The notes beneath the pieces were generated by a model that was given only the letters and a program-made list of their open reading frames with translations, was not told where the DNA came from and searched no databases. Of a DNA stretch of 64,000 nucleotides, positions 20,504 through 50,910 are shown piece after piece. This DNA is from an uncultured Alphaproteobacteria bacterium (GTDB taxonomy: Bacteria > Pseudomonadota > Alphaproteobacteria > Rs-D84). Numbering within the stretch: the stretch's first letter is position 1; every line of letters starts with the position of its first letter. The translations under genes and the position numbers were made by a program. The stretch lies in the NCBI GenBank assembly GCA_944389235.1, contig CALXLO010000003.1, positions 1,223 to 65,222 on the forward strand. The letters run 5' to 3'.

Positions 20504-20507
20504 TACT

Positions 20508-21518
20508 CTAACTCCATCTTGACAGTTTTAATGGGTGTATAAACAGCAAATTATCAGGCCAATTTTCCATTAAGTTTGACAGTTTATATTCATATTGTTT
20601 TGACATATCATCTGTCATATCAAAAATAGCATTGCCTGTTTGTCTGTGTTTATTCTTTTCAAATTTTAATTTATCTAATGTTAATAACATACATGTCGGC
20701 ATCGCAATTTCAACAAATACATTCATTGCTGCAAATATGCCTAATAAATTTGTAAAATCATCTATCTTATTATGCGGGACAACCAAGAAATCAGAAACTC
20801 CATACGCCAATGGATACAAAAAATCATCGTTTACCGGGCGACCGGCCCCAGAATTTATCAAACTATTCAACCGATGATTCAACCAATCTGTGTATGACCA
20901 TCCACGCAGTTTTTGATATATGAACCGATGCCAAGAATTACTATAACCACGCGGAAAGAATTTATAATAATTTGTATTATCTGGGGCAAAATATTTTTGC
21001 ATTTCAATAAAAACATTTTTATCTATATTTCTAGAACTGATGCCATGCGCGTCAAATGCACATCTGGCATAATTTATATCGGGTATAAAAGATTTGTATT
21101 CACACCCATTGCCACTTAATACCATTGACCGCAATGACATTATTGTCCACTCACTCCAATAAACTAATTCGCGATATGTTAATGCAGAAATACTGGGGAT
21201 ATAGCCTGTATTGTCATCTAAATTCAAAATTTCTGTTAAATTATATTGATTAATATTTGGATTTAATAATAAATCATCTGCTGCAAAACAGTAATGACTT
21301 GATTCATTGTTTTTATATGTACCCAGTCCTTGACGAATATAGTCATGAAACAAATATGAATTGCCGTATATTTTTGCGACATTTGATTTATGCCCTCTAT
21401 AAAAAGGCATCAAATGAAAAATTTTATCAAATCTGCCGGCATATAAAGATTCTATTCTATCTATATTTGATTCATAATTATGGTTATAAACCACAACCAA
21501 ACTAACTTTATGTTTCAT
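20508..21518 (-). CDS. Hypothetical protein, probable glycan-biosynthesis enzyme (GT-like)
   Basis: 336 aa. Co-oriented and tightly spaced (4-14 nt gaps) with the flanking GT genes. No family recognised. Confidence 0.4.
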   Translation of the reverse strand: MKHKVSLVVVYNHNYESNIDRIESLYAGRFDKIFHLMPFYRGHKSNVAKIYGNSYLFHDYIRQGLGTYKNNESSHYCFAADDLLLNPNINQYNLTEILNLDDNTGYIPSISALTYRELVYWSEWTIMSLRSMVLSGNGCEYKSFIPDINYARCAFDAHGISSRNIDKNVFIEMQKYFAPDNTNYYKFFPRGYSNSWHRFIYQKLRGWSYTDWLNHRLNSLINSGAGRPVNDDFLYPLAYGVSDFLVVPHNKIDDFTNLLGIFAAMNVFVEIAMPTCMLLTLDKLKFEKNKHRQTGNAIFDMTDDMSKQYEYKLSNLMENWPDNLLFIHPLKLSRWS

Positions 21519-21532
21519 GTAATAAAATCCTC

Positions 21533-25621: not shown

Positions 25622-26860
25622 TTAATGGCGATATATCTTTGCATTGTCGCGCCCCAACAAATCTCCTAATGTAAATTTACCTTCTTTACTATCTATAAAG
25701 TATGTCTTGGCAGACATATAACAATCTTGTATAGTGCTCTTACCTGCATCAGATGTTGAACCGCCGGGGCATGGATAGGCGGTATTATCATAACAATAAT
25801 ATCCAGCGGGGCAATCTTCATATTGCGCTGTTAATGTACGGTCTAATTCTTCTGTAAATTCAAAAACATCGTCTGCTTCGTATATTTTTCCAGCATCGCA
25901 TCCTGCTGTACATTCCCAGTGCTTAAATTTTTTACCTGCGGGTGTCCAACCTGTAATAATATCTATCACTTTTCTGTTAGTTGAGTTGGAATCATCCCCG
26001 ATATCAAATGTTTGACTTTTTGTATAACCGTTCGTATTTTTATATGTAATCTCAATCTCGTTAACCTTATACTGCGCATACAGCGTAGATGTGCCGCCTA
26101 TAAAAGCCTCTATTGTGTTGCCCTGATAGCTCTCGGATATTTTACCATCTGCATCAATGACTAAATCACCATCAGATGCTTTTGTATAATATCCTGTAAA
26201 TTCTAAATAGTTATGAGTGGGTTGTTTAAAATCGCTGCTTTCAACAGTTTTTGTACTCCAATTACTGCCATTTTTATATCCTGCTTCATATTTATAAGAA
26301 AGCTCTTTATTTATATATTTATCATAATCTGGCGCATGCGTATAAGGCATATTTTTATCTAGATTAATCGTATATGTTGCACCAGTGCAATAGATTCTGG
26401 GCGAAGTAGCCTCACAAGTATTCTTGCTACCTTCCCCCTCGCATTTGTAAGAGGCACCATTACCCACATAATGTTCGTCATAGCTGCCACATGATGCACA
26501 ACCGCTCCCGGCCCAATATTGACCTGTATCACAGGATATTTTCCAAGGACACTGGTCTCCTGTCTGGCCATCTTCTGTAAATGTTACATCAGGAAAATTG
26601 TTAGGTTGTGAACAATCGTATTTTTCACGATTATAACAATAGCTACCTATGGGACAAGTTTCACAATAGGTTATCATAAATTCATACCCATTGGGACACC
26701 CTTTGTCTTTATCATTACACAGGTCGTCATCAGTAATTTCCCGACAAATACCCTCACCATCAGCAGGAGCTCTATCAAAACAACATATATCTATCCTCTC
26801 GGCCATACAATCAGTTATACAACCAAAAACAAACAGAGCAACAAATAGTATTTTTTTCAT
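25622..26860 (-). CDS. Secreted cysteine-rich protein containing Listeria/Bacteroides (InlB B-type) repeats
   Basis: Signal peptide MKKILFVALFVFGCITDCMA. Cys-rich modules CPNGYEFMITYCETCPIGSYCY and CPAGYYCYDNTAYPCPGG. Two repeats end in TLYAQY / TLTAQY with a GWTPAGKKFKHWE core, which is the List_Bact repeat pattern. Confidence 0.6.
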   Translation of the reverse strand: MKKILFVALFVFGCITDCMAERIDICCFDRAPADGEGICREITDDDLCNDKDKGCPNGYEFMITYCETCPIGSYCYNREKYDCSQPNNFPDVTFTEDGQTGDQCPWKISCDTGQYWAGSGCASCGSYDEHYVGNGASYKCEGEGSKNTCEATSPRIYCTGATYTINLDKNMPYTHAPDYDKYINKELSYKYEAGYKNGSNWSTKTVESSDFKQPTHNYLEFTGYYTKASDGDLVIDADGKISESYQGNTIEAFIGGTSTLYAQYKVNEIEITYKNTNGYTKSQTFDIGDDSNSTNRKVIDIITGWTPAGKKFKHWECTAGCDAGKIYEADDVFEFTEELDRTLTAQYEDCPAGYYCYDNTAYPCPGGSTSDAGKSTIQDCYMSAKTYFIDSKEGKFTLGDLLGRDNAKIYRH

Positions 26861-26881
26861 CTCTCTAACTAATCCCAATAA

Positions 26882-34851: not shown

Positions 34852-36324
34852 TTATATCAAACTGTGGCCGGTCATATCAGATGGCTGGGGAATATTTAAC
34901 AGTTTCAAAATTGTTGGCGCAATATCAGACAAACCACCATCATGAACAGAATGTATATCTGGTGATACAACAATAAAATTCACGGGATTAGTTGTATGCG
35001 CTGTCCATGGTGAATTATGTTCATAGTCCCACATTGTTTCTGCATTTCCATGGTCCGCAGTTATCAACACCGTTCCACCCAGACCCAACACCGCCGGCAC
35101 TAATCGCGACAACTGGGCATCTAAAAATTCCATTGCATGAATTGCAGCATCCAGTTTTCCTGTGTGTCCAACCATATCACCATTTGCGTAATTCAAAATA
35201 ATAACATCGAATCGCGACAAATTTTCTAATAATTTGTCTGTTATTTCTGCTGCGGACATTTGCGGTGTTAAGTCAAAAGTTGCAACATCTGGCGATGGTA
35301 TTAAAATTTTTTCTTGGTTTGGGAAATCAATATTTCTTTCTGCATCAAAGAAATATGTAACATGATTATATTTTTCTGTTTCTGCGATACGCAATTGACG
35401 CACCCCGTATGCCGCCAGCACATCCCCCAAAGTATTTTCAACAGGCATGTCCGGCAACAGGGCGGGGCAAAATTCATCTAGACCTTCGCCATATTGCGAA
35501 AAGCACAATATATGCGCACCAGAATCTATAATTGCGCGCACAATTTGCCGTGCGCGGTCGCTGCGATAATTGCCAAAAATAAAACCATCATGCGATGTAA
35601 TTGGCACATCACCATCAATTACAGTTGGGTGTATAAATTCATCAGATTCGTCGCGTGCATACGCATCATTCAATGCTGATGTAATAGACGCAGCATGATA
35701 TTCTGATTTTGCATTTGCGATTGCGTCATACGCCAGTTTTGTTCTGTCCATATTTTTATTTCTGTCCATCGCATAATAGCGACCAGACAGCGTTCCAAAG
35801 AACGCACGACCATCTGCAAACCATTGCGCCAAAGATTCTTGTAATAATTCAATATATTTCATTGCGGACCGTGGCGGTGTATCACGACCATCTGCGATAA
35901 AATGGAAACAGACCTGTAAACCAGCATTTAATATATATCGCGCAATAACAATCATATCATTAATGTCAGAATGCACACGCCCATCAGACATTAATCCCGC
36001 GAAATGCACAATACCGCCATCGGCGCGTACAGCGTGTATAAAATCGTTCAACGGTTTATTTTGTTCCCAGTTTTCTATTTGAAATCTGCGCAAGAATTGA
36101 TTTACTATGCGACCAGAGCCAATTGTTATATGTCCAACCTCTGAATTACCCATAATACCATCTGGCAATCCGACTGCGGTGCCACTGGCGTTCAATTGTG
36201 AATGCGGATATTTTTTTATTAAATCATTAAAAAAGGGCATATTTGCCAACGCGACCGCGTTGTTTTCGCGCGATGCACTGATGCCGACCCCGTCCATTAT
36301 GCACAAAACAATTGGTTTAGTCAT
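34852..36324 (-). CDS. gpmI: 2,3-bisphosphoglycerate-independent phosphoglycerate mutase
   Basis: Start taken at MTKPIVLCIMDGVGIS (ATG at 36324). The 47-codon upstream extension in the ORF track is AT-rich junk. Metal-site motifs SDGGVHS-like (SDGRVHS) are present. Confidence 0.85.
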   Translation of the reverse strand: MTKPIVLCIMDGVGISASRENNAVALANMPFFNDLIKKYPHSQLNASGTAVGLPDGIMGNSEVGHITIGSGRIVNQFLRRFQIENWEQNKPLNDFIHAVRADGGIVHFAGLMSDGRVHSDINDMIVIARYILNAGLQVCFHFIADGRDTPPRSAMKYIELLQESLAQWFADGRAFFGTLSGRYYAMDRNKNMDRTKLAYDAIANAKSEYHAASITSALNDAYARDESDEFIHPTVIDGDVPITSHDGFIFGNYRSDRARQIVRAIIDSGAHILCFSQYGEGLDEFCPALLPDMPVENTLGDVLAAYGVRQLRIAETEKYNHVTYFFDAERNIDFPNQEKILIPSPDVATFDLTPQMSAAEITDKLLENLSRFDVIILNYANGDMVGHTGKLDAAIHAMEFLDAQLSRLVPAVLGLGGTVLITADHGNAETMWDYEHNSPWTAHTTNPVNFIVVSPDIHSVHDGGLSDIAPTILKLLNIPQPSDMTGHSLI

Positions 36325-36449
36325 TATTCCTTTCCCTGATATGATTGATAGATAATATTTAACGGGACAAATGTAGCACAGGGCTTTTTTAATTGCAAAA
36401 GAAAAAGAAAAAATGTATAACTGTATATATATAGAAAAAGAGATTAAGT

Positions 36450-36863
36450 ATGAGCAGACAGGCATTCAAACCAACCGCAGTTGATGAACATATTGGGCAA
36501 CGCGTACAATTGCGCCGCCAAATGATGGGTTTGTCGCAAAAAGACTTGGCAAAAATTTGTGGCGTTACATTTCAACAAATTCAAAAATATGAAAGCGCCG
36601 GCAATCGTATATCTGCATCACGATTATTTGAACTTAGCACGGCACTAGAAACCCCGGTATCTTTCTTTTTCCGTGGTTTGCCGGGCAACATGCCGGAACA
36701 GCCCCGTAATGGTCGCGTGCCGCATGTTTCTGAACAAACACAAAATGACCCGTTGTCCAAAAATGAATCGCTGGAATTAATAAAACTATATTGGAAATTA
36801 CCAAACGACGACCAGCGCGCAATGGTTATGAAAATGTTAAAAACATTAAATGGTGTTGATTAA
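36450..36863 (+). CDS. XRE-family helix-turn-helix transcriptional regulator with a C-terminal extension
   Basis: HIGQRVQLRRQMMGLSQKDLAKICGVTFQQIQKYESAGNRISASRLFELS is a canonical HTH_XRE. Confidence 0.75.
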   Translation: MSRQAFKPTAVDEHIGQRVQLRRQMMGLSQKDLAKICGVTFQQIQKYESAGNRISASRLFELSTALETPVSFFFRGLPGNMPEQPRNGRVPHVSEQTQNDPLSKNESLELIKLYWKLPNDDQRAMVMKMLKTLNGVD

Positions 36864-36873
36864 GAAAAAATTG

Positions 36874-36913
36874 TAAAAAAACAGGTGCTGTTTTATTAGC
36901 ACCTGTTTCTTTT
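36874..36913. terminator. Bidirectional terminator between the XRE regulator gene and the large secreted protein gene
   Basis: AAAAAA, then ACAGGTGCTgttttattAGCACCTGT, then TTCTTTT. Confidence 0.5.
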
Positions 36914-39800
36914 ATATTACTGACTGAGCAGCCGCATTATCCATTTCTTTACGCAATTCTTGATCAAAAGTGGATACTGTCGGCGGCTGCATAATAGAAC
37001 CAACAGAACCACCCCCGCCGCCAGAGCCGCCACCGCCACTGGAACCACCAGAACTGCCACCACTGGAATTACCACCACTGGAACCGCCGCCTGTGTCAGG
37101 CGATGGTTCTGGCAATGGGTCAGTAACAACAACCGGTTCGTCAAAATGTCCCACTACGCTGCCGGAACCAGAATCATTGGAACCACCACTATCACTGGCA
37201 CTGCCACCACGACCAAAGACGATATCACTTGTCGGGGCATAACAAACATTATTTTCATAATATCCACCCAATGCCTGTTCACATTGATACTCATACCATT
37301 GTTCCGAGAATGTACATCTGTCTGTGGCGATATCATACGATGTAAGTGTCGTACCATAAGAATCATTATAACTTAAACACTGGGTCATTGTGGTGTTTTC
37401 CAAGCATGTGCCCCATAGCTCTATCGTGTTGCCACCGTATACCTCGGTATAGAAAGGTAATAAATAATTGTCTTTTCCTGTTCGTTGGGCAATCAGATTA
37501 GTGTCGTTGCCCGAAGCACTTTGCCAATAACCATCATTTTCTTCGCATAAATTGCCCAATAATGTATCCATTTCTTCTTCTACATTATCCAAAATTTGTT
37601 CCAGTTGGTTCATTAATGTATCATCCAAATTATCCAAACCTGTTGAATTGGTACTGTTCAACATACAATTATTCTTTGCAAAATACAGCATATTAGATGC
37701 CAAACTTGAATCCATTTTTCCATCCGCGTTGTCAATAGTCATGTCCCTGATGTTCCCTAATGGTTTATTTCTGCAATTCCATGGATATCCATATTCACCG
37801 CTTGTCGGCGTACACAAATCAGCGACATAGTTATTTACTGCTTCGGCGCAACCTTCGGTAATGCGTGCAGTATCAACAGTATCAACAAAATTCAACAACG
37901 CTGTTAATCCACATCGTGCGGCGGCGGCATCACCTGTTGTGCCATCTGCGGTTTTAATATGGCCATTACCATCAAATTCACAACCGTCAGTATTACCATA
38001 CAATGTTGCACATGCGAGAACCTTTTCTTCACACATTTCACGGGCCGCCATCGCACTGACTGCGCCGCTATATTGTGATGTTGATGTATCAAAATTCTGC
38101 AATTGGCCACTTTGTGTATTATAACATTCCGCCATTGTACTGACGCAAGACATTCTGACTTCTTCTAATTTTTCATCTTGTGCCTGGGCAATTTCAATTA
38201 TTGCCTGGCGCTTAAATTCTGTCCAAACTTCTTCGGCAATATCGCGACATGAATCCAGCGCAGTTTCGGCAAACATACGACGCGAATCCAAGAAACTGTC
38301 AAAGGACGCATTATCACGCAATACATCGCCTGTTGCCCCGGTTGTATCGACCCCAGATAAAGATATCAAGTTTTCTAATTCAAACAATCGCGGTGAATAT
38401 ATTGGCTCGCCCGTTGATTGATTGATATATGCCCCTGTATAATCCAGGCATTTTTCATAATTTGGGCCGCACGCATTGTTTGTTAATATTGCACTGCGTA
38501 CATTTCCGATACATTCATTAACATCAGCGGAATTATGTGAACGATATTCGTCCAGACGCGCTTCGCGTAAATACTTTTCCGCAGTACGAATTGTTTGTTC
38601 CAATTTCTCTTTTTGTGAATTTATATTTTTTTCGTATGTATTGCAATCTTGGGTAATCAAAATACTGTACGCACTGCGTGCCATTGTCATAACCGCATCA
38701 TTTTGGCATGAATCCGCGACCAATTCCATACATTGACGACTGGCTTGATTATATAATTCTTCACCTTCCAGGGTGGATAAATCCGCGCCGCCACCGCCAC
38801 CAAAAATAGACGAAGACGAACCACCACCCCAAACATCGCCCAAATCAGATGTAAAATCAATTATCCCCAGCGACAGCGACATATTCGATGACGACGATGA
38901 CGAAGAAGATGATGAACCACTGCCCGACAGCAAATCGCCAATTTCTTCCAGCATTTGTGCCGCCGCACTGGTATCGCGTTTAATTGCTTCTTCGCCGGCG
39001 GTGGCTGTATACATCGCCGACACTTCGTCAGCAGTCATCCCAACAACCGCCAGATTATTATTTTCAAATTGTGCCAGCATATTTAATGCTTCACTGATAG
39101 TATTTTCTGTATTCCGAAATTCTGAATAACGCGCACTGCAAAAACAGCGTCGATATGTATCGTTTGCATTGGCACATAATTGGTCCATACATGTTGCATA
39201 CGCTTCGCGACATTCTGCGTACCCACCACCAATGGCGGAAATATCAGTAAATATTTCTGTTGGTCGTGCCATCGACGCGCGCGCCGAACCGACAACTGTA
39301 TTACGCGACGCACTGCGTGCCACACCCGTCGAATGCCCAGATGCACCCGTTGGCATCGTCGCACTGCGTACAACCGAACCAGATGTTGCCGCCCGCGATG
39401 TTGCCGCGCGTGAAACACCCGCCGCCGAACTGGAAACAGTTTGGCGATTTGTTGCACTGCGCCCGACAATAACATTTTGTGCCGCGGGCTGCATCGCCGC
39501 CGACCGCGAAACAGTAACAGATGGTCGTGATGTTGCCGCACGGGTTATATTACTGGCTGTATTACGCCCAGATTGAACAGTTGCCCCAGATGCAGATGTA
39601 TTCGTGCTTCCTGTATTCCGCACAACGCGTCCAGCGGTGCGCGGACTGGCCACAGCAGTGGCAGTTGCCACGGTGTTTTGTGTTGCGGTGCCGCCAGTGG
39701 CGCGTGGGTTTGGTGCCGGTTCTGCATACGCCGCACATGCCGCAAATAAAGCCGCTAAAAAAACAGAATTTTTACAAAAAATCCTAATACTAAATTTCAA
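36912..39800 (-). CDS. Large secreted Ser/Thr/Gly-rich, Cys-rich protein (962 aa), likely surface-exposed or exported
   Basis: Signal peptide MKFSIRIFCKNSVFLAALFAACAAYA. N-terminal T/S/A/R-rich low-complexity region (RAATSR repeats). Poly-Ser run SSSSSSSSSS. About 40 Cys in the central region. C-terminal tail GGGSSGGNSSGGSSGGSSGGGGSGGGGG. Confidence 0.7.
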   Translation of the reverse strand: MKFSIRIFCKNSVFLAALFAACAAYAEPAPNPRATGGTATQNTVATATAVASPRTAGRVVRNTGSTNTSASGATVQSGRNTASNITRAATSRPSVTVSRSAAMQPAAQNVIVGRSATNRQTVSSSAAGVSRAATSRAATSGSVVRSATMPTGASGHSTGVARSASRNTVVGSARASMARPTEIFTDISAIGGGYAECREAYATCMDQLCANANDTYRRCFCSARYSEFRNTENTISEALNMLAQFENNNLAVVGMTADEVSAMYTATAGEEAIKRDTSAAAQMLEEIGDLLSGSGSSSSSSSSSSNMSLSLGIIDFTSDLGDVWGGGSSSSIFGGGGGADLSTLEGEELYNQASRQCMELVADSCQNDAVMTMARSAYSILITQDCNTYEKNINSQKEKLEQTIRTAEKYLREARLDEYRSHNSADVNECIGNVRSAILTNNACGPNYEKCLDYTGAYINQSTGEPIYSPRLFELENLISLSGVDTTGATGDVLRDNASFDSFLDSRRMFAETALDSCRDIAEEVWTEFKRQAIIEIAQAQDEKLEEVRMSCVSTMAECYNTQSGQLQNFDTSTSQYSGAVSAMAAREMCEEKVLACATLYGNTDGCEFDGNGHIKTADGTTGDAAAARCGLTALLNFVDTVDTARITEGCAEAVNNYVADLCTPTSGEYGYPWNCRNKPLGNIRDMTIDNADGKMDSSLASNMLYFAKNNCMLNSTNSTGLDNLDDTLMNQLEQILDNVEEEMDTLLGNLCEENDGYWQSASGNDTNLIAQRTGKDNYLLPFYTEVYGGNTIELWGTCLENTTMTQCLSYNDSYGTTLTSYDIATDRCTFSEQWYEYQCEQALGGYYENNVCYAPTSDIVFGRGGSASDSGGSNDSGSGSVVGHFDEPVVVTDPLPEPSPDTGGGSSGGNSSGGSSGGSSGGGGSGGGGGSVGSIMQPPTVSTFDQELRKEMDNAAAQSVI

Positions 39801-39860
39801 ATCTTACATCTCTCTGGCTATATTTTATCATTTTTGCATGACTTTAATCAACAGTGAATT

Positions 39861-40499
39861 TTATTCTATGCAACAATTAACCGCGTTTTTAACCCAATCA
39901 CCCAGCCGACGAACCGCTGATTTAGATTCTTTGATGTTTGGTGCCGGTTCAGATTTTGCATTTTTTGACATTGGTGGCATTTCAGAATCTTTTATTGCGT
40001 GTTCATATACATCTGGGGCAATTTGTTGTACACCTGACAAATCAATCAAATCCATATTTATACCCCAAAACAATGAATACAATTCATACGATTTATTAAA
40101 TAAATCATACGCGTCGCGCGTATTCCCCGCAGACAATGCCTTGGTACCAACCTCCATCACGCGCATAGATGCCGCCAGCAAGTGTTTTGAAATACACCAT
40201 ACTTCACCATTTTCTGCGCTAGATTTTTTTACGATTCGCGACATTAATTCTTTGCGCATATCACGCACAGTATTAATTAAATCATAAAACCCTGTTTTTT
40301 GCGTTTTTGCACCGCTGAAAAAGAAATGTTCTTCCAATGATATTAAATTCATCAGTGCAATAGACAAATCTTGGTCAGATGATAAATCCAGCGGGTTGAC
40401 TTTTTTTGACGCGTCAACCTTGTTAATCATTTCCTGCATTGTCATTTTTTGTGATTTCTTGTCGGATTTTTTTACCGATGTTTTTTTCACAGATTTCAT
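39861..40499 (-). CDS. Hypothetical protein with a Lys-rich N-terminus
   Basis: 212 aa, MKSVKKTSVKKSDKKSQK... No family recognised. Confidence 0.4.
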   Translation of the reverse strand: MKSVKKTSVKKSDKKSQKMTMQEMINKVDASKKVNPLDLSSDQDLSIALMNLISLEEHFFFSGAKTQKTGFYDLINTVRDMRKELMSRIVKKSSAENGEVWCISKHLLAASMRVMEVGTKALSAGNTRDAYDLFNKSYELYSLFWGINMDLIDLSGVQQIAPDVYEHAIKDSEMPPMSKNAKSEPAPNIKESKSAVRRLGDWVKNAVNCCIE

Positions 40500-40524
40500 A
40501 ATTTCCCTTCCTTTTTTTAATTCA

Positions 40525-41037
40525 TCACATGGTTATCAACCAGAATATAACAGTTGCCACAATCAAGAAAGACAATGGTACAACAACTTTCTGAAATGCG
40601 AACTTGGCATGTCCACCATTATCGCGTTTTATCTTGGCATACCAACGCGCGCCTAAATAAAATGCAATCGTGCCAACAATAATCCCCAGCAAGAACTTAT
40701 CAATGCCCCACAATGTTGCCGCACCAAATGTCATGCCAGGTAATGCGTATACCGCCGCCAACAGTCCATAATAAACAATAAACGGAACCACAATCTGCCA
40801 AAAAACACTTTTTACACCATGCTTTTTTAACCACCCCGCCGTCCAAAAAAACAAAGACAAAGTCAATCCGCCGGCCCAAATCCCAGTAATAACATCATCA
40901 ACCCCCAGTAAACGCATTCCTTCCAGTCCGGCACCAACGGCAACAGTGCACACCGGACATACCGCCATCGCCGCCGGTAATGCCAATAACACAAAAATCC
41001 CAGAAAATGCGGTTATACCAAGAATTTTCTTAATCAT
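40525..41037 (-). CDS. Small polytopic membrane protein with an N-terminal CPVC motif
   Basis: Five predicted TM helices. CPVCTVAVGAG sits near the first helix. Confidence 0.5.
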   Translation of the reverse strand: MIKKILGITAFSGIFVLLALPAAMAVCPVCTVAVGAGLEGMRLLGVDDVITGIWAGGLTLSLFFWTAGWLKKHGVKSVFWQIVVPFIVYYGLLAAVYALPGMTFGAATLWGIDKFLLGIIVGTIAFYLGARWYAKIKRDNGGHAKFAFQKVVVPLSFLIVATVIFWLITM

Positions 41038-41092
41038 ATACTGTCCTTTGATTAATGAATATTCAAATATTACAAAAAATCATTTACTGCGG

Positions 41093-41956
41093 TCAATATG
41101 ATTTTATAACACCGCGTAAATGCGCACTGCGCGCACGGGGGTTTTGGGCAATTTCTGTATCTGTTGGGGTCAAAGTTTTTATTTGTACAAATTTTGCCTG
41201 GGCTTGTGTTGGAATGCGCGGGTCGCCTGGTTGTGTTGACCATTTACGAAAAGTCTGTTTAACAATTCTGTCTTCTGTTGAATGAAATGTTATACACAAG
41301 CATTTGCCACCGACATTTAATAACCCCGGCACAGAATCTAATGCGCGCACCAATTCGCCCATTTCATCATTTACCGCAATCCGCAGTGCCTGGAACACAG
41401 GCGCAATATCACGCGGATTATGGATTAAGTTTTTCAATGCAAATGTGGTCTGGGGTTCTGCACTTTTAATTGCACGCGCCAATATCCCAGCCTTTTTAAT
41501 ATCACCAAAATCACGCAATATTTTAGCTAAATCGTCCGATGACAATTCTGCAATTAATTCAGCAGCAGTTTTACCATCGCCCGACATTCGCATATCTAGC
41601 GGACCATCAGCACGAAAAGAAAACCCGCGCGATGGCACATCAATTTGCATAGATGATATACCTAAATCAAAAACGATTATATCAAACTTTCCGTCCAGTT
41701 TTGACATATACGAAAAAGGACGGGATATAAATTCAAATTGATTACCAAATTCAGACTTTATTTTTTCTGCATCTGCGGCAACATTTGGGTCGCGGTCAAA
41801 TGCAACAACCGACGCACCGGCATCTAAAAACGCCCGTGTATAGCCGCCTGCACCAAAAGTCGCATCAACAACATATTTGCCGCGCACATCACCCGCCGCA
41901 TTTATAACAGCATCCAGTAATACAGGTATATGTTTTGTATTGTTATTCAATTTCAA
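41093..41956 (-). CDS. rsmH: 16S rRNA (cytosine1402-N4)-methyltransferase RsmH (MraW)
   Basis: HIPVLLDAVINA, DATFGAGGYTRAFL and NDEMGEL-type motifs. The start overlaps the dnaE stop by 14 nt. Confidence 0.85.
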   Translation of the reverse strand: MKLNNNTKHIPVLLDAVINAAGDVRGKYVVDATFGAGGYTRAFLDAGASVVAFDRDPNVAADAEKIKSEFGNQFEFISRPFSYMSKLDGKFDIIVFDLGISSMQIDVPSRGFSFRADGPLDMRMSGDGKTAAELIAELSSDDLAKILRDFGDIKKAGILARAIKSAEPQTTFALKNLIHNPRDIAPVFQALRIAVNDEMGELVRALDSVPGLLNVGGKCLCITFHSTEDRIVKQTFRKWSTQPGDPRIPTQAQAKFVQIKTLTPTDTEIAQNPRARSAHLRGVIKSY

Positions 41957-44900
41957 CCCTGATTCCTAAATTTATAAAATCTGTGGCGGTTGTTGCCCCC
42001 AATGCAATTCCACCCGGCAACGCCATCGCCGCAACTTTATCCGTCGCATGCAGATTCAATATAACACGCGTTGGTCCATGGGGCAGGGCACTGACCGCTT
42101 TTTTAACATTTGGCAATACCGCCCGGTCATAAATATCCAATGTTATTTTTTTTGCAATTTTCGCAACCCATGTCGTCAAAGGCATAATAGAATCCACAAA
42201 CACAGAAACCCGGTCATCACGACAAGATGTTTTACCAGATATTAAAACCAAACTTTCATTTGATAACATCTGGGCAAAATCAGCCGCCGATTGTCCAAAC
42301 GCCACTGCATCAATATTACCAAAACTGTCAGATGCGTTAATTGTTATCATATCTTTACCTGATTTAGTACGACGGCGTGAAAAAGAACTGACTGTTGCGG
42401 CAATTTGTACCGATTTTCTGTCGCCCAATGTGGCCAGTGTTGCACTGGTTGCCAATTTTGCACGCGCAATTAAATGCTTGTACTGGTCCAGTGGATGTGC
42501 AGATATATAAAACCCCAGTGCAGACAATTCGTTTTCTAAACGCTGGGCAAAAGTCCAGGGTGCGACATGCGGTAAATTTTTTCTTAATCTGTCTTCGGCG
42601 ACATCGTCTTCTATGGTATTGGCGAACAAAGACAATAAATTTGCCCCATCGCGTGATTTTGATGCGTATGATAAAATTGCGTCTGCATTCATGAATATTG
42701 CGGCGCGATTTGGTTCCAAAGAATCCAAAACACCGACCTTGGCAAATGCCTCTAAGATTCTTTTATTTATAATTGGCGCACATCTTTTTGCAAAATCTGT
42801 CAGATTTTTGAATTTGCCGTTTGCACGCCGTTCAGCCACAATCGCATCAGTTGCACTGGTTCCAACGCCTTTGATAGCAGCCAAAGCATAGATTATTTTT
42901 CCGTCGCGTACGGTGAACAATGATTCACTTTGATTAATATCTGGCGCAACAATTTGTATTCCGAAATTTGCCTTGGCATCATCAACGAACAATGCTAATT
43001 GGTCTGTGTCGTTCAGATTACTGGACATAGATGCCGCCAAAAATTCTGGGGTATAATTTGCCTTTAAGTATGCGCATTGGTTCGCAACAATAGAATATGC
43101 GATTGCGTGCGATTTATTAAACGCATACTTTGCAAATTCTTTGAATTTTTCCCACAGTTCTTTTGCCTGTTCGCGATTCAGCGTTTGTTCTTTTTCGCAA
43201 CCTTCATAAAATTTACCTTCTAATTCGTCCAACATTTTGGCGATTTTTTTACCCATTGCCTTGCGCACATTGTCTGATTGCCCGCGGGTAAAGCCTGCCA
43301 ACACACGCGTCAGTTGCATAACCTGTTCTTGATAAACAATAATGCCGTATGTTTCTTTTAATATTGGTTCTGCGCGTGGGTGTACATATTCAACAGCTTC
43401 ATCACCATGCATACGCGCAATAAATTGTGGAATAAACGCAATTGGTCCGGGGCGATTCAGCGCATTTAACGCCGAAATTTCCAAGAAACTGGTCGGGTGC
43501 ATTTTGCGCAAAGTCTGCTGAACAAACGGGGCATCGAATTGGAATATACCTTCGGTCAGACCAGATTGCCATAATTTCATGGTTCTAGGGTCATCTGTTG
43601 GAATCTTGTCTAAATCTATATTGATTCCGCGTGTTTGTTGTATCAAATTTATTGCATACTTTAACACCGCCAGCGTTTCTAGCCCTAAAAAGTCGAACTT
43701 AATTAATCCGGCTGATTCCAAGTAATGCCCATCAAACTGACACGATGGCAGCGCGTTGGCTGGGTCGCGATATACTGGTGCGATTTTTGTTGTTGGGCGG
43801 TCGCCAATGACAACACCGCACGCATGCTGTCCCAGATTACGCAAAGAACCTTCCAATTCTTCGGCGATTGTAACAACTTTATTCATATCTTCGTCTGTTT
43901 GCAACACAGATTGAATTTCTGGCGACGCATCAACAGCGTCTTTTAGTGTTTTGGCATCTTGTGGAATTAATTTAGAAAACCGGTCAGATTTAGAATACGG
44001 TATTCCATACACACGACCAATATCACGAATTGCGCCACGGGCCTGTAAACTGCCGAATGTAATAATGCGGCACACCGAATCATGACCATATTTATCACAA
44101 ATATACGCCAACACGCGTTCTATGCCAGTTGGTTCAAAATCAACATCAAAATCAGGCATAGAAATACGGTCTGGATTCAAGAATCTTTCGAACAGCAAAC
44201 CATATTTTAACGGATTAACATGCGTAATCCCCAACGCCCACGCAACGATAGAACCTGCACCAGAACCACGACCCGGCCCGGTCAAAATATCATTGCGGCG
44301 ACACCAATCAATATAATCTGCAACAATCAAGAAATATCCTGGGAATCCCATATTAATAATGACCCCCAGTTCAAATTCCGCTTGTTCATAATATGGCGCG
44401 GTATCTGTGATTCCGTGCTGCGCTAATTTTTTCGCCAACCCTGACATAGTATGTTCGCGCAACATTTGGCATTCTTGTTCTAAATCATCACCGAATCGGG
44501 GCAACAAAGGCTTTTCGTGTACATTGACCATAAAACCGCAACGATTTGCAATCGCGACAGTGTTTTCTATGGCTTCTGGTAAATCGGAAAAAATTTCTGC
44601 CATTTCGTTTGCAGACTTAAAATATTGTTCCGACGATTTACGCGGTCGTTCTGGGTCAATAACCTTGGTCTGACCCAGTACACAACTAAGTGCGTCTTCG
44701 GCCTCATAATCTTTATTTGTGGCAAATTCAACATCATTTGTTGCGACAATCGGTATGTTTAATTCTGTGGCAATTTTCAAAAATTCTGGTTCTGTTTTGA
44801 TTTCATCTGCCAATCCATGTCGCTGAATTTCCATATAGAATCGGTCGCCAAAAATATCAACAAATTGTTTCGCATATTGCCGCGCCAACGCATCTTGGTT

Positions 44901-45353
44901 ATTTAACACCGCCATGCCAATTGGTCCAGTTTGCGCCCCGGACAAGCAAATTATACCATTATTATGCGCCGCCAGTTCGTCAAATGTTATATATGGTCCC
45001 AAATGATGGTTTTCTGACCGCATATACATAATACGGCTAAGTTCACACAGATTCAAATATCCATCATGATTTTGCGCCAACAAAACTATACGCGACAAAG
45101 CATTTTCCCGCAAGATTTTTGGGTCAGCATTATGTTGATTTAATGTTATTTCCGTGCCGATAATCGGTTGCAATTTGTTTTTTGGCATAACATCAGAAAA
45201 TTCGGCACATCCAGACATCAGATTCGTATCAGTCAACGCACACGCCGGCATATTATTTGCCCGACACAATTCTGGTATATCCTTGATTTTCAAGGTACCA
45301 GCACCGATTGAAAATCGCGAATGCGTACGAAGATGAATGAATTGATTTTCCAT
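41943..45353 (-). CDS. dnaE: DNA polymerase III alpha subunit (start taken at MENQFIHLRTHSRFS)
   Basis: N-terminal PHP domain (HLRTHSRFSIGAG), polymerase core motifs and a C-terminal OB fold. About 1136 aa. Confidence 0.9.
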   Translation of the reverse strand: MENQFIHLRTHSRFSIGAGTLKIKDIPELCRANNMPACALTDTNLMSGCAEFSDVMPKNKLQPIIGTEITLNQHNADPKILRENALSRIVLLAQNHDGYLNLCELSRIMYMRSENHHLGPYITFDELAAHNNGIICLSGAQTGPIGMAVLNNQDALARQYAKQFVDIFGDRFYMEIQRHGLADEIKTEPEFLKIATELNIPIVATNDVEFATNKDYEAEDALSCVLGQTKVIDPERPRKSSEQYFKSANEMAEIFSDLPEAIENTVAIANRCGFMVNVHEKPLLPRFGDDLEQECQMLREHTMSGLAKKLAQHGITDTAPYYEQAEFELGVIINMGFPGYFLIVADYIDWCRRNDILTGPGRGSGAGSIVAWALGITHVNPLKYGLLFERFLNPDRISMPDFDVDFEPTGIERVLAYICDKYGHDSVCRIITFGSLQARGAIRDIGRVYGIPYSKSDRFSKLIPQDAKTLKDAVDASPEIQSVLQTDEDMNKVVTIAEELEGSLRNLGQHACGVVIGDRPTTKIAPVYRDPANALPSCQFDGHYLESAGLIKFDFLGLETLAVLKYAINLIQQTRGINIDLDKIPTDDPRTMKLWQSGLTEGIFQFDAPFVQQTLRKMHPTSFLEISALNALNRPGPIAFIPQFIARMHGDEAVEYVHPRAEPILKETYGIIVYQEQVMQLTRVLAGFTRGQSDNVRKAMGKKIAKMLDELEGKFYEGCEKEQTLNREQAKELWEKFKEFAKYAFNKSHAIAYSIVANQCAYLKANYTPEFLAASMSSNLNDTDQLALFVDDAKANFGIQIVAPDINQSESLFTVRDGKIIYALAAIKGVGTSATDAIVAERRANGKFKNLTDFAKRCAPIINKRILEAFAKVGVLDSLEPNRAAIFMNADAILSYASKSRDGANLLSLFANTIEDDVAEDRLRKNLPHVAPWTFAQRLENELSALGFYISAHPLDQYKHLIARAKLATSATLATLGDRKSVQIAATVSSFSRRRTKSGKDMITINASDSFGNIDAVAFGQSAADFAQMLSNESLVLISGKTSCRDDRVSVFVDSIMPLTTWVAKIAKKITLDIYDRAVLPNVKKAVSALPHGPTRVILNLHATDKVAAMALPGGIALGATTATDFINLGIRVEIE

Positions 45354-45443
45354 GCCACGACAATAGCAAAAAATCACACCCCAGGGCAACCATATTATTT
45401 AATAAAAAAATTTATTAAAAAAAACACCTGTGTACAGGTGTTT

Positions 45444-46226
45444 CTACATAACCTTGCCTTGGGTTGGGTAAAAGGTCAGTTGAATTTTTTGCCATTTATC
45501 AAATTCATTTGGTGGCAACATCTTGAACGGCTGGCATGTATTTATTGCCGAACGAATTGTGTCCAACACATACGCAAACGCCGAATCTGTTTCGGCACGC
45601 GCCGCCGATTCAAACCATACATCACGCACTGTTCCATTACGACGCATTGTTAAATGTGCCACTGCGCGAATATCACCAATATCATTGCGCGTCGTATCAA
45701 TAACCCAACACCGCGTCATTGCAACACGCAACGCATCAACAACCGACACTGTTAATGTACGGTCCAGCGATACAACTTCGCGATTAACACGAACGACCGC
45801 TTTTTTCTTTTTTTGCGGCTGTTTTTGTTCAGTATTTTTTTGTTCGGTGGCATCTGATTCATCAGACTGTGCCGGCGTTTCTGATTCTGACGCAGTATCA
45901 TTAACCAAACTTGGGGTTTCCAGCGGTATTGGTTCTGATTCTGGCACAGGTGTTGGTTCTGGTTCTGGGGGTAAATCAGGTTGCGGTGCTGGGTCATCTG
46001 GGACATCTGATTCAACATCTGCATTTACATTATGCAATATCGTTTCATCGCCAGACACATGAACAGAATCTAAATCTATTTCCAATATTTCTATACGGTC
46101 TGGGGCGACTAATTTTGCACGGTCAACGACAATAACGAAAGATGTCAGCATTAACGCAATCAACACCATGTGTCCACAAACAGACATTAATAAATTTTCT
46201 GATGAAAACCGATTCCCAGTATTCAT
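45444..46226 (-). CDS. tolA: TolA/TonB-family protein. N-terminal TM anchor, Pro/Glu-rich spacer, C-terminal TonB-like domain.
   Basis: Sits in the tolA position after tolQ-tolR. Anchor is VCGHMVLIALMLTSFVIVV. Spacer is PDDPAPQPDLPPEPEPTPVPESEP. Confidence 0.55.
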   Translation of the reverse strand: MNTGNRFSSENLLMSVCGHMVLIALMLTSFVIVVDRAKLVAPDRIEILEIDLDSVHVSGDETILHNVNADVESDVPDDPAPQPDLPPEPEPTPVPESEPIPLETPSLVNDTASESETPAQSDESDATEQKNTEQKQPQKKKKAVVRVNREVVSLDRTLTVSVVDALRVAMTRCWVIDTTRNDIGDIRAVAHLTMRRNGTVRDVWFESAARAETDSAFAYVLDTIRSAINTCQPFKMLPPNEFDKWQKIQLTFYPTQGKVM

Positions 46227-49983: not shown

Positions 49984-50910
49984 ATGACAAGATTTGTTTT
50001 AATGGCGATTTTACCGGTTTTTATTATATTTGGTGCGCATGCTGCGACCGAAAATATCGTTTATGACAACTTTCAAACAATTTACACAGAAACACCTGTT
50101 CAGTCTTATTATGCATATCCAGATGACCCGAATTTCGTTCCAGAAACCGAATTTATGAACAGTGCAAACGGTTTGAATTATGACCTGAATATCGAAGAAG
50201 CCAGACAAATAGAATCCATGATGCACCCAGGTGTCGCATTCGCCGACCGGCCGATGGTTATATGCCGTAATTTTGGTTGCACACGCTTAAACGACCGCAT
50301 ATCGCGTACATTTTTGTTCAACAGTCTGGCAAACATATTTATGATGAATGCTTATTCACGGTTATATATATGTGAAGCGGACCCATTTTCGCGCGACTGT
50401 TTGCAATCTGGTATATCTTTCCCTGTACGCAGCGGAATTGCGAACGCGTTGGTCAAAATACCCAAGGCATCTATATCCCAAGTACACATGTCAACAGGTC
50501 TGTCCAAGGCAACAGTCAATATGACATATGAATTCTTGGTTAATGGAATCGACCGCCAATGCGAACCAACAATAACGGATATTGTTATCCCATCTAATAC
50601 CGAAGCAACATTGTCCAGTCGCGAATTTACATGCAATATGACCAGCGACGGGCTTAGCAATGTATCATTGCTGGTTAACATAGACTATATTGATTTAGAC
50701 TATGGTATATTGGGCGGTTATTATTCTGTCGGCATGCAGGGTCCAACCACCGGCGGCGGAACTGGGTACGCGTTATTCAAGACCGAATTTACAACTGGCG
50801 GAATGCAATTTCGTGCTGCGATAACCGGCGAAGAAGAAATGATGGGCGCACACAACGCCATGATGACAATTCAACCGGGCGAATATGCTGTTGAACCGCT
50901 GAAAAAATAA
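49984..50910 (+). CDS. Secreted hypothetical protein
   Basis: Signal peptide MTRFVLMAILPVFIIFGAHA. 308 aa. Sits upstream of, and co-oriented with, the two-component pair. Confidence 0.5.
   Translation: MTRFVLMAILPVFIIFGAHAATENIVYDNFQTIYTETPVQSYYAYPDDPNFVPETEFMNSANGLNYDLNIEEARQIESMMHPGVAFADRPMVICRNFGCTRLNDRISRTFLFNSLANIFMMNAYSRLYICEADPFSRDCLQSGISFPVRSGIANALVKIPKASISQVHMSTGLSKATVNMTYEFLVNGIDRQCEPTITDIVIPSNTEATLSSREFTCNMTSDGLSNVSLLVNIDYIDLDYGILGGYYSVGMQGPTTGGGTGYALFKTEFTTGGMQFRAAITGEEEMMGAHNAMMTIQPGEYAVEPLKK

What the first reader, a model, noticed from the sequence alone, without database searches (positions are those of the whole stretch)
36912..41037. 962-aa Ser/Gly/Thr-rich, Cys-rich secreted protein plus two uncharacterised neighbours
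A signal peptide is followed by, in order:
- a T/S/A/R-rich repeat region
- a poly-Ser run
- a large central region with about 40 cysteines
- a Gly/Ser-rich tail (GGSSGGNSSGGSSGGSSGGGGSGGGGG)

The architecture suggests an extended surface or extracellular protein with disulfide-stabilised domains. This is unusual for a cytoplasm-dwelling bacterium, but is seen in host-interaction or cell-envelope proteins.

It is followed by a Lys-rich 212-aa unknown and a small 5-TM protein carrying CPVC. Both are also unrecognised.
Basis: seen in the sequence. Interest (0 to 1): 0.55.

Follow-up and report, generated by a model that had tools for sequence, protein, structure and literature searches.

The report
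Conserved cysteine-rich exported protein, gut Alphaproteobacteria
The 962-residue gene is real and belongs to a large undescribed family of exported, cysteine-rich helical proteins kept by hundreds of tiny-genome gut bacteria (Candidatus Enterousia, order Rs-D84); it resembles no known family or solved fold, and its function is unknown, most likely a cell-surface or envelope structure.

Summary
The three ORFs are real, on the minus strand, transcribed 170 aa, 212 aa, then 962 aa, downstream of dnaE-rsmH.

**Corrections to the finding.** The large protein has 30 Cys, 28 in the mature core, not about 40. The Gly/Ser tail is found only in this strain lineage, not across the family.

**Organism.** An uncultured gut alphaproteobacterium, Ca. 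Enterousia (order Rs-D84), with a genome under 1 Mb.

**Family.**
- More than 900 homologues; relatives in 461 reference species; same gene order in all 80 loci examined.
- No Pfam, NCBIfam, PDB, phage or plasmid match.
- Members share a signal peptide, an Arg-rich Lys-free disordered tail (pI 12) and an acidic core with 28 Cys invariant among close relatives.
- The AlphaFold model is almost all helix (pLDDT 83), with no fold match at E below 0.1.
- C607 and C630 appear or vanish together in 122 of 123 members, which suggests a disulfide.
- The first two thirds of the core are conserved. The last third varies, and strain differences cluster in variable loops.

**Best reading (inferred).** A disulfide-stapled surface or envelope protein, held by its Arg tail to an anionic polymer, with an exposed variable end.

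**Neighbours.** Both are unknown and dispensable. The 5-TM protein has an invariant CPVC; the other is probably a cytoplasmic four-helix bundle.

New family, function untested.

The parts
36912..39800 (-). 962-aa ORF (TTG start) encoding the exported Cys-rich protein
   Evidence: ORF. N-terminus aligns with homologues from the same start. More than 900 homologues. dN/dS 0.17.
39723..39800 (-). Signal peptide, residues 1-26 (MKFSIRIFCK + hydrophobic stretch + AYA|EP)
   Evidence: Read from the sequence. The n-h-c layout and the A-x-A site followed by (Q/P)APNPR are conserved in alignment A1. Cys22 is not conserved, so this is not a lipobox. No signal-peptide predictor was available.
39249..39722 (-). 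Arg-rich, Lys-free, S/T/A/G-rich low-complexity tail (residues 27-184) with repeated V-S-R-S/A-A-T motifs
   Evidence: pI 12.0, 17 Arg, 0 Lys, 2 acidic residues. In 117 homologues the medians are 147 aa, 16 Arg, 0 Lys and 6 R[SAT]A motifs. Nine Arg positions are invariant in A1.
37233..39248 (-). Acidic Cys-rich core (residues 185-856), 28 Cys, almost all alpha-helical
   Evidence: pI 4.1, 28 Cys. All 28 are invariant in 14 sequences. AlphaFold2 pLDDT 83.3, pTM 0.60, helices up to 55 residues. No PDB or BFVD fold match at E below 0.1.
38784..38927 (-). Ser/Gly-rich loop inside the core (residues 292-339) carrying conserved DF..D..W / S.F / D...L.G residues
   Evidence: pLDDT below 50 at model residues 114-152. 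D315, F316, D322, W324, S331, F333, D340, L344 and G346 are invariant.
37911..37982 (-). Loop bounded by C607 and C630, a cysteine pair gained and lost together
   Evidence: Both present in 59, both absent in 63, discordant in 1 of 123 family members.
37233..37760 (-). Variable C-terminal third of the core (residues 681-856): Cys scaffold kept, loops hypervariable
   Evidence: Identity to the window per 20-residue block is 0.11-0.51 here, against 0.55-0.91 for most blocks of residues 181-680. Distant relatives align only over about the first 420 core residues. Six of the 11 strain-level substitutions fall here, five of them in residues 764-777.
36912..37232 (-). Lineage-specific Gly/Ser-rich C-terminal extension (residues 857-962 plus stop)
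   Evidence: Shared only with P0001 and L090. Short codon repeats and an 8-residue indel between strains.
36875..36912 (.). Hairpin with T-runs on both strands between the convergent stop codons: bidirectional terminator-like site
   Evidence: 15-pair stem on the minus strand, 12-pair stem on the plus strand. Consensus match only.
39822..39851 (-). Promoter-like site (TTGATT-18-TAAAAT with TG) in the 60-bp gap upstream of the large gene
   Evidence: The number of such sites in the region is no higher than in shuffles, so this is weak.
39861..40499 (-). 212-aa protein: Lys-rich N-terminus, invariant KKVNPLDLSSDQDL motif, four-helix core, C-terminal NCCIE; no signal peptide
   Evidence: All 8000 scored candidates were homologues. 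AlphaFold2 pLDDT 65.8, four long helices. No fold or sequence match. Present in 68 of 80 loci in long or short form.
40525..41037 (-). 170-aa membrane protein with about 5 hydrophobic segments; conserved CPVC (residues 27-30, window 40948..40959) just after the first segment; conserved NGGHA.F.FQ
   Evidence: both Cys in at least 95% of 59 sequences. 632 homologues, all unnamed. One homologue is labelled DUF3429 by UniRef, but Pfam gives no hit. Present in 58 of 80 loci.
41093..41956 (-). rsmH (16S rRNA methyltransferase), upstream on the same strand; context
   Evidence: Methyltransf_5 in the sister locus. Adjacent in 74 of 80 loci.
36450..36863 (+). Convergent XRE/HTH_3 regulator gene; context
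   Evidence: PF01381, E 3.5e-12. Conserved downstream in 62 of 80 loci.

Best explanation
The 962-aa gene encodes a member of an undescribed protein family that is specific to, and near-universal in, the reduced-genome gut Alphaproteobacteria of order Rs-D84 (Ca. Enterousia).

The protein is exported through the Sec pathway. Its mature form has two parts:
- A disordered tail of about 150 residues, rich in arginine and lacking lysine.
- An acidic rod-like body of about 670 residues, built from long helices and probably stapled by up to 14 disulfides.

I infer that it is a structural component of the cell envelope or cell surface. The arginine tail would hold the protein on an anionic polymer: the cell's own LPS or peptidoglycan, the acidic bodies of neighbouring copies, or host or partner polyanions. 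The conserved first two thirds of the body would form the scaffold. The variable, cysteine-framed last third would be the exposed end that meets the environment (partner cell, host mucus, phage, antibody).

Shown: the gene is real, the family exists and is under purifying selection, the domain layout, the helical model, one co-varying cysteine pair, and the conserved-base and variable-end pattern.

Inferred: export, disulfides at the other 26 cysteines, location, the anchoring role of the tail, and the function.

The two upstream genes are probably co-transcribed neighbours rather than parts of one machine.
For: **Real gene, conserved family**
- 934 hits, the best 120 at 55-99% identity over the full core.
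- 461 relatives in species-representative genomes, all 80 listed being gut Alphaproteobacteria or Ca. Enterousia MAGs.
- 685 clusters at 50% identity.
- The order dnaE-rsmH-...-large gene is kept in 80 of 80 loci.
- dN/dS is 0.17.

**Export**
- The n-h-c signal sequence and A-x-A site are conserved.

**Tail**
- pI 12, 17 Arg, 0 Lys. The same bias holds in 117 close and 68 distant members, despite a 42% GC genome.

**Body**
- 28 Cys are invariant among 14 homologues of 54-99% identity.
- 22 of them are kept in at least 93% of 123 members that reach down to 27% identity.
- C607 and C630 are concordant in 122 of 123 members.
- The model has pLDDT 83.3 and is almost all helix.

**Conserved base, variable end**
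- The conservation profile shows it.
- Distant members share only the first 420 or so core residues and carry other Cys-rich C-terminal modules.
- Eight of 11 strain-level substitutions lie in two variable loops.

**Envelope context**
- Distant members sit next to porin-like outer-membrane genes (PF17251, DUF3078) or next to paralogues and other secreted Cys-rich proteins.
- In 67 of 80 Enterousia loci a second secreted Cys-rich gene follows directly.

**Biology of the host lineage**
- Genomes under 1 Mb, no biosynthesis, and a suspected partner-dependent life with unexplained envelope proteins (PMC12306168).
Against: - There is no experimental or homology-based evidence for location or function.
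- No route across the outer membrane was identified: no C-terminal barrel and no secretion-system genes nearby. The protein may stay in the periplasm.
- The organism is a strict anaerobe without respiration, and no Dsb or VKOR gene is in the window, so how 14 disulfides would form is unexplained.
- The cysteines could instead bind metal.
- Core sequence divergence is close to that of rsmH, which fits a housekeeping scaffold as well as a surface protein.
- The signal peptide was judged by eye and by conservation only.
Confidence: 0.42

Rival explanations
1. Periplasmic envelope scaffold. The protein stays between the two membranes and forms a disulfide cross-linked or electrostatically assembled network (basic tail on acidic body) that stiffens the envelope. 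This would work like the cysteine-rich OmcB/OmcA complex of Chlamydia.
For: - Sec signal but no recognisable outer-membrane translocation feature.
- Strong conservation, comparable with rsmH.
- Opposite charges of tail and body.
- Outer-membrane gene neighbours in distant lineages.
Against: - These bacteria keep peptidoglycan, MreB and RodA (amidase and LysM genes in the window), so a peptidoglycan substitute is not needed.
- Hypervariable loops and strain-level changes clustered in them are less expected for a buried scaffold.
- There is no sequence or fold relation to OmcB.
Confidence: 0.2
2. Released host- or partner-binding factor, or toxin. The protein leaves the cell, and its arginine tail binds sulfated or phosphorylated polymers of host mucus or of another microbe.
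For: - Many disulfides suit a protease-rich gut lumen.
- Arg-only basic tail.
- Modular variable C-terminal parts in relatives, some with motifs that look like eukaryotic Cys-rich repeats (CxxCxxGYYCPGG in P0190; not recognised by Pfam).
- The lineage is thought to depend on other cells.
Against: - No secretion system or known effector domain was found.
- Very high conservation of two thirds of the body across hundreds of species is unusual for effectors.
- The gene sits in a fixed housekeeping position, not an island, and has no phage or plasmid relatives.
Confidence: 0.15
3. The cysteines are metal or cluster ligands rather than disulfides, and the protein is a periplasmic metal-binding or redox protein suited to an anoxic gut.
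For: - The organism is anaerobic and non-respiring.
- No Dsb-type gene was seen in the 64-kb window.
- A tight N-terminal cluster C-x6-C-x4-C-x9-C-x-C.
Against: - The mature body has an even number of cysteines (28).
- One pair is gained and lost together.
- Cysteines are spread singly along long helices rather than in CxxC-type clusters.
- There is no match to any metal-binding family.
Confidence: 0.08
4. The three genes form one functional module. The CPVC membrane protein would oxidise or handle the cysteines of the large protein, and the 212-aa protein would act as its cytoplasmic chaperone or regulator.
For: - Same strand, gaps of 25-60 bp.
- Both CPVC cysteines are kept in at least 95% of 59 homologues, and the motif is predicted to lie at the outer face of the membrane.
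- All three genes co-occur in most loci.
Against: - The large gene is present in 80 of 80 loci, the 170-aa gene in 58 and the 212-aa gene in 68. Three loci have neither.
- Loci without the 170-aa gene still carry both Cys-rich genes.
- The 170-aa protein has only two cysteines, whereas DsbB and VKOR need four.
- The 212-aa family appears much larger than the large-protein family: all 8000 scored candidates hit, a capped count, against 934 of 8000.
Confidence: 0.1
5. The ORF is a low-complexity or antisense artefact.
For: TTG start, and long low-complexity stretches at both ends.
Against: - Hundreds of full-length homologues with invariant cysteines.
- Purifying selection.
- A confident structure model.
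- The overlapping plus-strand ORFs are mirror images of the low-complexity parts.
Confidence: 0.01

Closest known systems
Chlamydial 60-kDa cysteine-rich outer-membrane-complex protein OmcB (Pfam Chlam_OMP6, PF03504)
   Same: Layout (from my own knowledge of OmcB): a Sec signal peptide, then a basic N-terminal stretch that binds polyanions (heparan sulfate in OmcB), then a large body with more than 20 conserved cysteines. Both are lineage-defining envelope proteins of host-dependent bacteria with small genomes.
   Different: No sequence match. The body here is almost all helix, whereas OmcB is built from beta-rich repeats. The tail here is about 150 residues and Arg-only. Enterousia keeps normal peptidoglycan genes.
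Variant surface proteins of protists (trypanosome VSG; Giardia VSP and other Cys-rich surface proteins)
   Same: Long helices or cysteine frameworks carrying hypervariable exposed loops on a conserved scaffold. Some distant family members end in CxxC...GYYCPGG-type motifs that look like such repeats.
   Different: No fold match in the PDB and no Pfam match. This is a single conserved gene in a fixed housekeeping locus, not a large switching gene family. The host is bacterial.
Periplasm-spanning helical tethers (Braun lipoprotein Lpp, TolA domain II)
   Same: Elongated helical proteins of the Gram-negative envelope with a separate anchoring segment.
   Different: No lipobox (Cys22 is not conserved) and no transmembrane anchor. 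The protein is much larger, cysteine-rich and acidic. No sequence or fold similarity.
DsbB / VKOR membrane thiol oxidoreductases (compared with the 170-aa neighbour only)
   Same: Small multi-pass membrane protein with a conserved CxxC near the outer face, encoded next to a cysteine-rich exported protein.
   Different: Only two cysteines and no second loop pair. No Pfam or NCBIfam match. Absent from 22 of 80 loci that keep the large gene.

Membership tests
Autotransporter / type V secreted adhesins | C-terminal beta-barrel translocator domain (e.g. PF03797) | tested here: not met
   No Pfam or NCBIfam hit. The model is almost all helix with only short strands. Most homologues end at ...GGYYEN.VCYV.
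Known adhesin and repeat families (RTX, Big, cadherin-like, YadA, EGF, GCC2_GCC3) | Significant match to the family profile | tested here: not met
   Zero Pfam families at E up to 1 for the window protein. Zero confident hits in nine distant members at E up to 0.01.
Chlamydial OmcB (Chlam_OMP6) | Match to PF03504 and a beta-rich repeat fold | tested here: not met
   No Pfam hit. Helical model. No PDB sequence or fold hit.
Bacterial lipoproteins | Conserved lipobox L-[ASTVI]-[GAS]-C at the end of the signal peptide | tested here: not met
   The window has FAAC at residues 19-22, but that Cys is absent from most homologues, which instead keep an A-x-A site followed by QAPNPR.
Sec-exported proteins (signal peptidase I substrates) | Positively charged n-region, hydrophobic h-region, A-x-A cleavage site | tested here: met
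   MKFSIRIFCK / NSVFLAALFAACA / AYA|EP, conserved in layout across A1. Judged by inspection; no predictor was available.
Disulfide-bonded extracytoplasmic proteins | Cysteines paired as disulfides | tested here: inconclusive
   Even count (28), invariance among close homologues, and one pair co-varying in 122 of 123 members.
DsbB / VKOR (170-aa neighbour) | Two cysteine pairs in separate outer loops, plus a profile match | tested here: not met
   Only C27 and C30. No Pfam or NCBIfam match.
DUF3429 (170-aa neighbour; label given by UniRef to homologue P0275) | Match to the Pfam DUF3429 profile | tested here: not met
   UniRef name. hmmscan of the window protein and of P0275 against Pfam gives no hit at E up to 1.
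O-glycosylated S/T-rich surface proteins linked to the nearby glycosyltransferase island | Glycan on Ser/Thr tracts; genetic linkage to the transferases | not testable with these tools
   The GT6 and STELLO-like genes lie at 19526..23143, 14 kb away behind secA, dnaK and others. They are not within 8 kb of the gene in related loci. Glycosylation itself cannot be tested here.

The most novel reading that the evidence does not exclude
The family is the main building block of a so far unseen disulfide-stapled surface structure that lets Rs-D84 cells attach to, and live off, partner cells or the host mucus layer. The Arg tail would act as a polyanion anchor, the variable C-terminal third as the recognition end, the downstream Cys-rich protein as a fast-evolving partner subunit, and the CPVC membrane protein as a quinone-independent thiol oxidase that makes disulfides in a non-respiring anaerobe.
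Probability: 0.08. Interest if true: 0.8.

Novelty: new variant of a known kind. Interest (0 to 1): 0.5.

Why it matters
Rs-D84 (Ca. Enterousia) bacteria are widespread in human, livestock, bird and termite guts. Their genomes are under 1 Mb, they lack most biosynthesis, and nobody knows how they live (PMC12306168).

A 2.5-2.9 kb gene kept at one chromosomal position in every genome examined, under purifying selection, is a large investment for such a genome. It is therefore a good candidate for the lineage's key envelope or contact structure.

It also gives three practical leads:
- A protein of about 670 residues with a confident model and no fold relative.
- A test case for how a non-respiring anaerobe could form many disulfides.
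- A specific marker and antigen for finding these cells and their partners in samples.

Tried and rejected
- **Family profiles.** Pfam and NCBIfam scans of all three proteins, nine distant relatives, the downstream Cys-rich proteins and the paralogues found nothing.
- **Solved structures.** PDB sequence searches, with a family profile for the large protein, found nothing.
- **Fold searches.** Foldseek of the core model against PDB and BFVD, and of the 212-aa model against PDB, gave only chance helical matches.
- **Mobile elements.** tblastn of the core against phage and plasmid collections found no match, so a mobile-element origin is rejected.
- **RNA.** An Rfam scan of 36000..42000 found nothing.
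- **Repeats.** The repeat scans show only codon-level repeats of the G/S tail and the RSAT motif.
- **Tail as a remnant of the lost downstream gene.** I tested whether the strain-specific G/S tail is what remains of the Cys-rich gene that follows in other genomes. Protein similarity to some of those tails is low-complexity only. DNA homology to the closest locus stops at the end of the core and resumes at the terminator and HTH gene. Left open, not supported.
- **Lipoprotein reading.** Rejected; the Cys is not conserved.
- **Three-gene module.** Weakened by presence and absence patterns.
- **Technical limits.**
  - One structure job was lost and rerun.
  - Model coordinates are not exposed, so disulfide geometry could not be checked.
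  - The Begmatov 2023 Enterousia paper is not held.

Full report
**1. What is in the sequence**

Three ORFs lie on the minus strand:

| ORF | Window coordinates | Note |
|---|---|---|
| 170 aa | 41037..40525 | first in transcription order |
| 212 aa | 40499..39861 | second |
| 962 aa | 39800..36912 | TTG start, last |

- They follow dnaE (45389..41943) and rsmH (41956..41093), with gaps of 55, 25 and 60 bp.
- So the two small genes precede the large one; they do not follow it.
- A convergent XRE/HTH_3 gene (36450..36863) ends 48 bp from the large gene's stop. A hairpin with T-runs on both strands lies between them (36875..36912).
- The cysteine count is 30: 2 in the signal peptide and 28 between residues 197 and 853, not about 40.
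- No Rfam family matches and there are no notable DNA repeats. The plus-strand ORFs that overlap are mirror images of the low-complexity stretches.

**2. The gene is real and belongs to a large unnamed family**

- A search with the core (residues 185-870) found 934 proteins at E up to 0.001. The best 120 are 55-99% identical over 93-100% of the query (98% or more for nearly all), mostly 760-880 aa, with no Pfam domain and no name.
- An exhaustive search of cluster representatives found 685 clusters, 258 of them at E up to 1e-30.
- A scan of one genome per species found 461 loci encoding a relative. All 80 loci returned come from uncultured gut Alphaproteobacteria, many named Candidatus Enterousia. 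One is a circular 958-kb chromosome.
- In all 80 loci the gene keeps its place downstream of dnaE-rsmH. In most it lies upstream of the convergent HTH gene and gpmI.
- An independent assembly of a sister strain (L090) has the same arrangement. Against it the gene has dN/dS 0.17. For comparison, dnaE gives 0.04, and secA has no amino-acid changes.
- There are no relatives in the phage or plasmid collections.
- The artefact reading is excluded.

**3. The organism**

- The window is about 42% GC. Besides housekeeping genes, it carries an outer-membrane beta-barrel gene, a TolQ-type gene, an amidase-like gene and a LysM gene.
- The only functional description of the lineage (PMC12306168) makes these points:
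  - Order Rs-D84 has genomes mostly under 1 Mb.
  - It is strictly fermentative, with no respiratory chain.
  - It lacks most biosynthetic pathways.
  - It has MreB, RodA and peptidoglycan synthesis, and no flagella.
  - It is suspected to live as an obligate symbiont or parasite of other cells.
  - It has many unexplained envelope proteins.

**4. Anatomy of the protein**

| Residues | Feature | Evidence |
|---|---|---|
| 1-26 | Signal peptide, cleavage AYA\|EP, followed by a conserved (Q/P)APNPR. Cys22 is not conserved, so not a lipoprotein. | |
| 27-184 | Low-complexity tail: pI 12.0, 17 Arg, 0 Lys, 2 acidic residues, repeated V-S-R-S/A-A-T motifs | |
| 185-856 | Acidic core: pI 4.1, 28 Cys | |
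| 857-962 | Gly/Ser-rich extension, found only in this strain lineage | |

*The tail*
- It is a family feature, although its sequence drifts.
- In 117 close homologues the medians are 147 residues, 16 Arg and 0 Lys.
- In 68 distant members the medians are 14 Arg and 2 Lys.
- Nine Arg positions are invariant in a 14-sequence alignment.
- An Arg-only bias in an AT-rich genome argues for selection on the guanidinium group. That points to contacts with phosphate, sulfate or carboxylate groups (inference).

*The core*
- All 28 Cys are invariant among 14 sequences of 54-99% identity.
- Across 123 members reaching down to 27% identity, 22 Cys are kept in at least 93%.
- C607 and C630 are present together in 59 members, absent together in 63, and discordant in 1. 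This is the expected signature of a disulfide pair.

*The C-terminal extension*
- It contains short codon repeats and differs by an 8-residue indel between the two strains.

**5. Structure**

- AlphaFold2 on residues 181-870, with 123 aligned family members, gave mean pLDDT 83.3 and pTM 0.60.
- The model is almost entirely helical, with helices of 55, 52 and 32 residues and a few short strands near the C-terminus.
- The Ser/Gly-rich segment (residues 292-339) is the only long low-confidence stretch. It still contains invariant Asp, Phe and Trp residues.
- Foldseek found nothing at E below 0.1 in the PDB or in BFVD. A family profile finds no PDB sequence.
- Within the libraries available here, the fold has no known relative.

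**6. Conserved base, variable end**

- Identity to the window per 20-residue block is 0.55-0.91 for most of residues 181-680. The exceptions are the Ser/Gly-rich loop (0.46-0.54) and a dip at residues 481-500 (0.41).
- It falls to 0.11-0.51 for residues 681-856, although the cysteines there persist.
- Distant members (27-37% identity, 600-1176 aa) keep the signal peptide, the Arg tail and about the first 420 core residues. They carry other cysteine-rich C-terminal parts.
- Between the window and its sister strain, 8 of 11 substitutions fall in two variable loops, residues 485-489 and 764-777.
- A conserved scaffold with a diversifying end is what one expects of a protein with one exposed face.

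**7. Neighbourhood in relatives**

- In 67 of 80 Enterousia loci a second secreted cysteine-rich gene follows the large gene directly. It is 380-550 aa with 18-30 Cys and an EGF-like CxWLCxPGYxGxxC motif.
  - It evolves much faster, at 26-50% identity.
  - It is missing from the window and from L090.
- I tested whether the window's extra tail is a remnant of that gene. The only similarity is low-complexity, and DNA homology to the closest locus does not cover the tail. The idea stays open.
- In more distant lineages (termite and other gut metagenomes), family members occur as three paralogues flanking infA-secG. They share the C..Y..CMD.FC...RC.CS motif and 23-24% identity over about 260-410 residues.
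- Other distant members are transcribed divergently from a cluster of porin-like outer-membrane genes (PF17251 Pom, DUF3078).
- The window holds another secreted cysteine-rich ORF (25622..26878, 24 Cys) with no Pfam match.
- These bacteria therefore encode a whole set of unrecognised cysteine-rich exported proteins. The large protein is the conserved member of that set.

**8. The two neighbours**

*The 170-aa protein*
- It has about five hydrophobic segments.
- The VCPVCTVAVGAG motif just after the first segment and an NGGHA.F.FQ motif are largely conserved in 59 sequences, with both Cys in at least 95%.
- It has 632 homologues, all unnamed.
- UniRef labels one homologue DUF3429, but Pfam does not confirm this.

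*The 212-aa protein*
- It has no signal peptide, a Lys-rich N-terminus, an invariant KKVNPLDLSSDQDL stretch and, in its long form, a C-terminal NCCIE.
- All 8000 scored candidates were homologues, so its family appears much larger than that of the large protein.
- A medium-confidence model shows a four-helix core (pLDDT 65.8) with no informative fold match.

*Presence in the 80 loci*
- The large gene is present in all 80, the 212-aa gene in 68 (long form, or a short form of 120-142 aa) and the 170-aa gene in 58. Three loci have neither.
- Loci without the 170-aa gene still carry both cysteine-rich genes.
- The neighbours are therefore conserved companions in part of the lineage, not required partners.
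- A role for the CPVC protein in thiol chemistry is only a lead.

**9. Most likely mechanism, and rivals**

- Best reading (confidence about 0.4): a Sec-exported, disulfide-stapled helical protein of the cell surface or envelope.
  - The Arg tail would anchor it to an anionic polymer.
  - The variable C-terminal third would be exposed.
- Main rival: a purely periplasmic scaffold that works like chlamydial OmcB.
- Other rivals:
  - A released binding factor.
  - Cysteines acting as metal ligands, given the anaerobic, non-respiring host and no Dsb gene in the window.
- Shown:
  - The family exists.
  - The domain layout.
  - Purifying selection.
  - The helical model.
  - One co-varying Cys pair.
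  - The pattern of conservation.
- Inferred: export, the other disulfides, location, anchoring and function.

**10. Comparison with known families**

- *OmcB.* It works most like OmcB in layout: signal peptide, basic polyanion-binding N-terminus, many-cysteine body, in a host-dependent bacterium. It fails every membership test for OmcB.
- *Other families.* It also fails for autotransporters, known adhesin repeats and lipoproteins.
- *Glycosylation.* The suggested link to the glycosyltransferase island (GT6 and STELLO-like genes at 19526..23143, low GC) has no support from position or synteny and cannot be tested here.

**11. Verdict**

- The feature is a genuine member of an undescribed, lineage-defining protein family with no known fold relative, in an uncultured and poorly understood gut lineage.
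- The general kind (an exported cysteine-rich envelope or surface protein with a disordered anchor) is known, so I rate it a new variant of a known kind.
- Interest is moderate (0.5): a strong candidate for experiments, but nothing here reveals a new mechanism.

Noticed in passing
window 25622..26878 (-): Another secreted cysteine-rich ORF: 418 aa, 24 Cys, signal-peptide-like start, and CPIGSYC / CPAGYYCYDNTAYPCPGG motifs that look like eukaryotic Cys-rich repeats. It has no Pfam match and no relation to the large protein or to the downstream Cys-rich gene of related loci.
   Followed up: partly
L001 10573..12000; L036 10449..11996; 67 of 80 related loci: A second secreted Cys-rich gene (380-550 aa, EGF-like CxWLCxPGYxGxxC motif) follows the large gene in most Enterousia genomes and evolves fast (26-50% identity). 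It is absent from the window and from the sister-strain assembly L090, where the large gene abuts the HTH gene.
   Followed up: yes
window 19526..23143 (-): Low-GC (about 31%) island with a GT6-family glycosyltransferase (PF03414, E 2.6e-39, fused to a DUF6492-like part) and a STELLO-like transferase. From my own knowledge, bacterial GT6 enzymes usually make blood-group-like glycans. This could be host mimicry by a gut symbiont.
   Followed up: no
L083 1588..11432; L087 8001..17460: In termite-gut and other metagenome contigs, three paralogues of the family (700-1143 aa) flank infA-secG, together with a 236-252-aa secreted Cys-rich protein. Two of the paralogues end in a conserved ...VCEDI(N/P)M.
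   Followed up: partly
L081 3288..7703; L088 4836..7859: Distant family members are transcribed divergently from a cluster of outer-membrane genes (Pom porin PF17251, a DUF3078-like barrel, a 27-Cys secreted protein), next to the alpha-2-macroglobulin and PbpC pair.
   Followed up: no
window 39861..39875 (C-terminus of the 212-aa protein): The long form of the 212-aa protein always ends in NCCIE. The short form (120-142 aa) in other sublineages lacks this end, and nearly all loci with the short form also lack the 170-aa gene. The meaning of the double Cys is unknown.
   Followed up: partly
window 41943..41956: The dnaE stop region overlaps the rsmH start by 14 bp. There is no mraZ, and none of the usual cell-division and cell-wall genes follow rsmH. 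rsmH has been separated from the dcw cluster in this lineage.
   Followed up: no
window 34852..36465 (-): The mechanical ORF for gpmI (537 aa) starts too far upstream and overlaps the HTH gene start. The sister-strain gene call is 490 aa, so the true start is probably near MTKPIV (about 36327).
   Followed up: partly
window 45444..46226 (-), 49984..50910 (+), 20508..21518 (-), 8597..9703 (-): Several further ORFs of 170-336 aa have no Pfam match. The 260-aa one lies downstream of a TolQ-type gene and may be a divergent TolA-like protein (a guess from position only).
   Followed up: no
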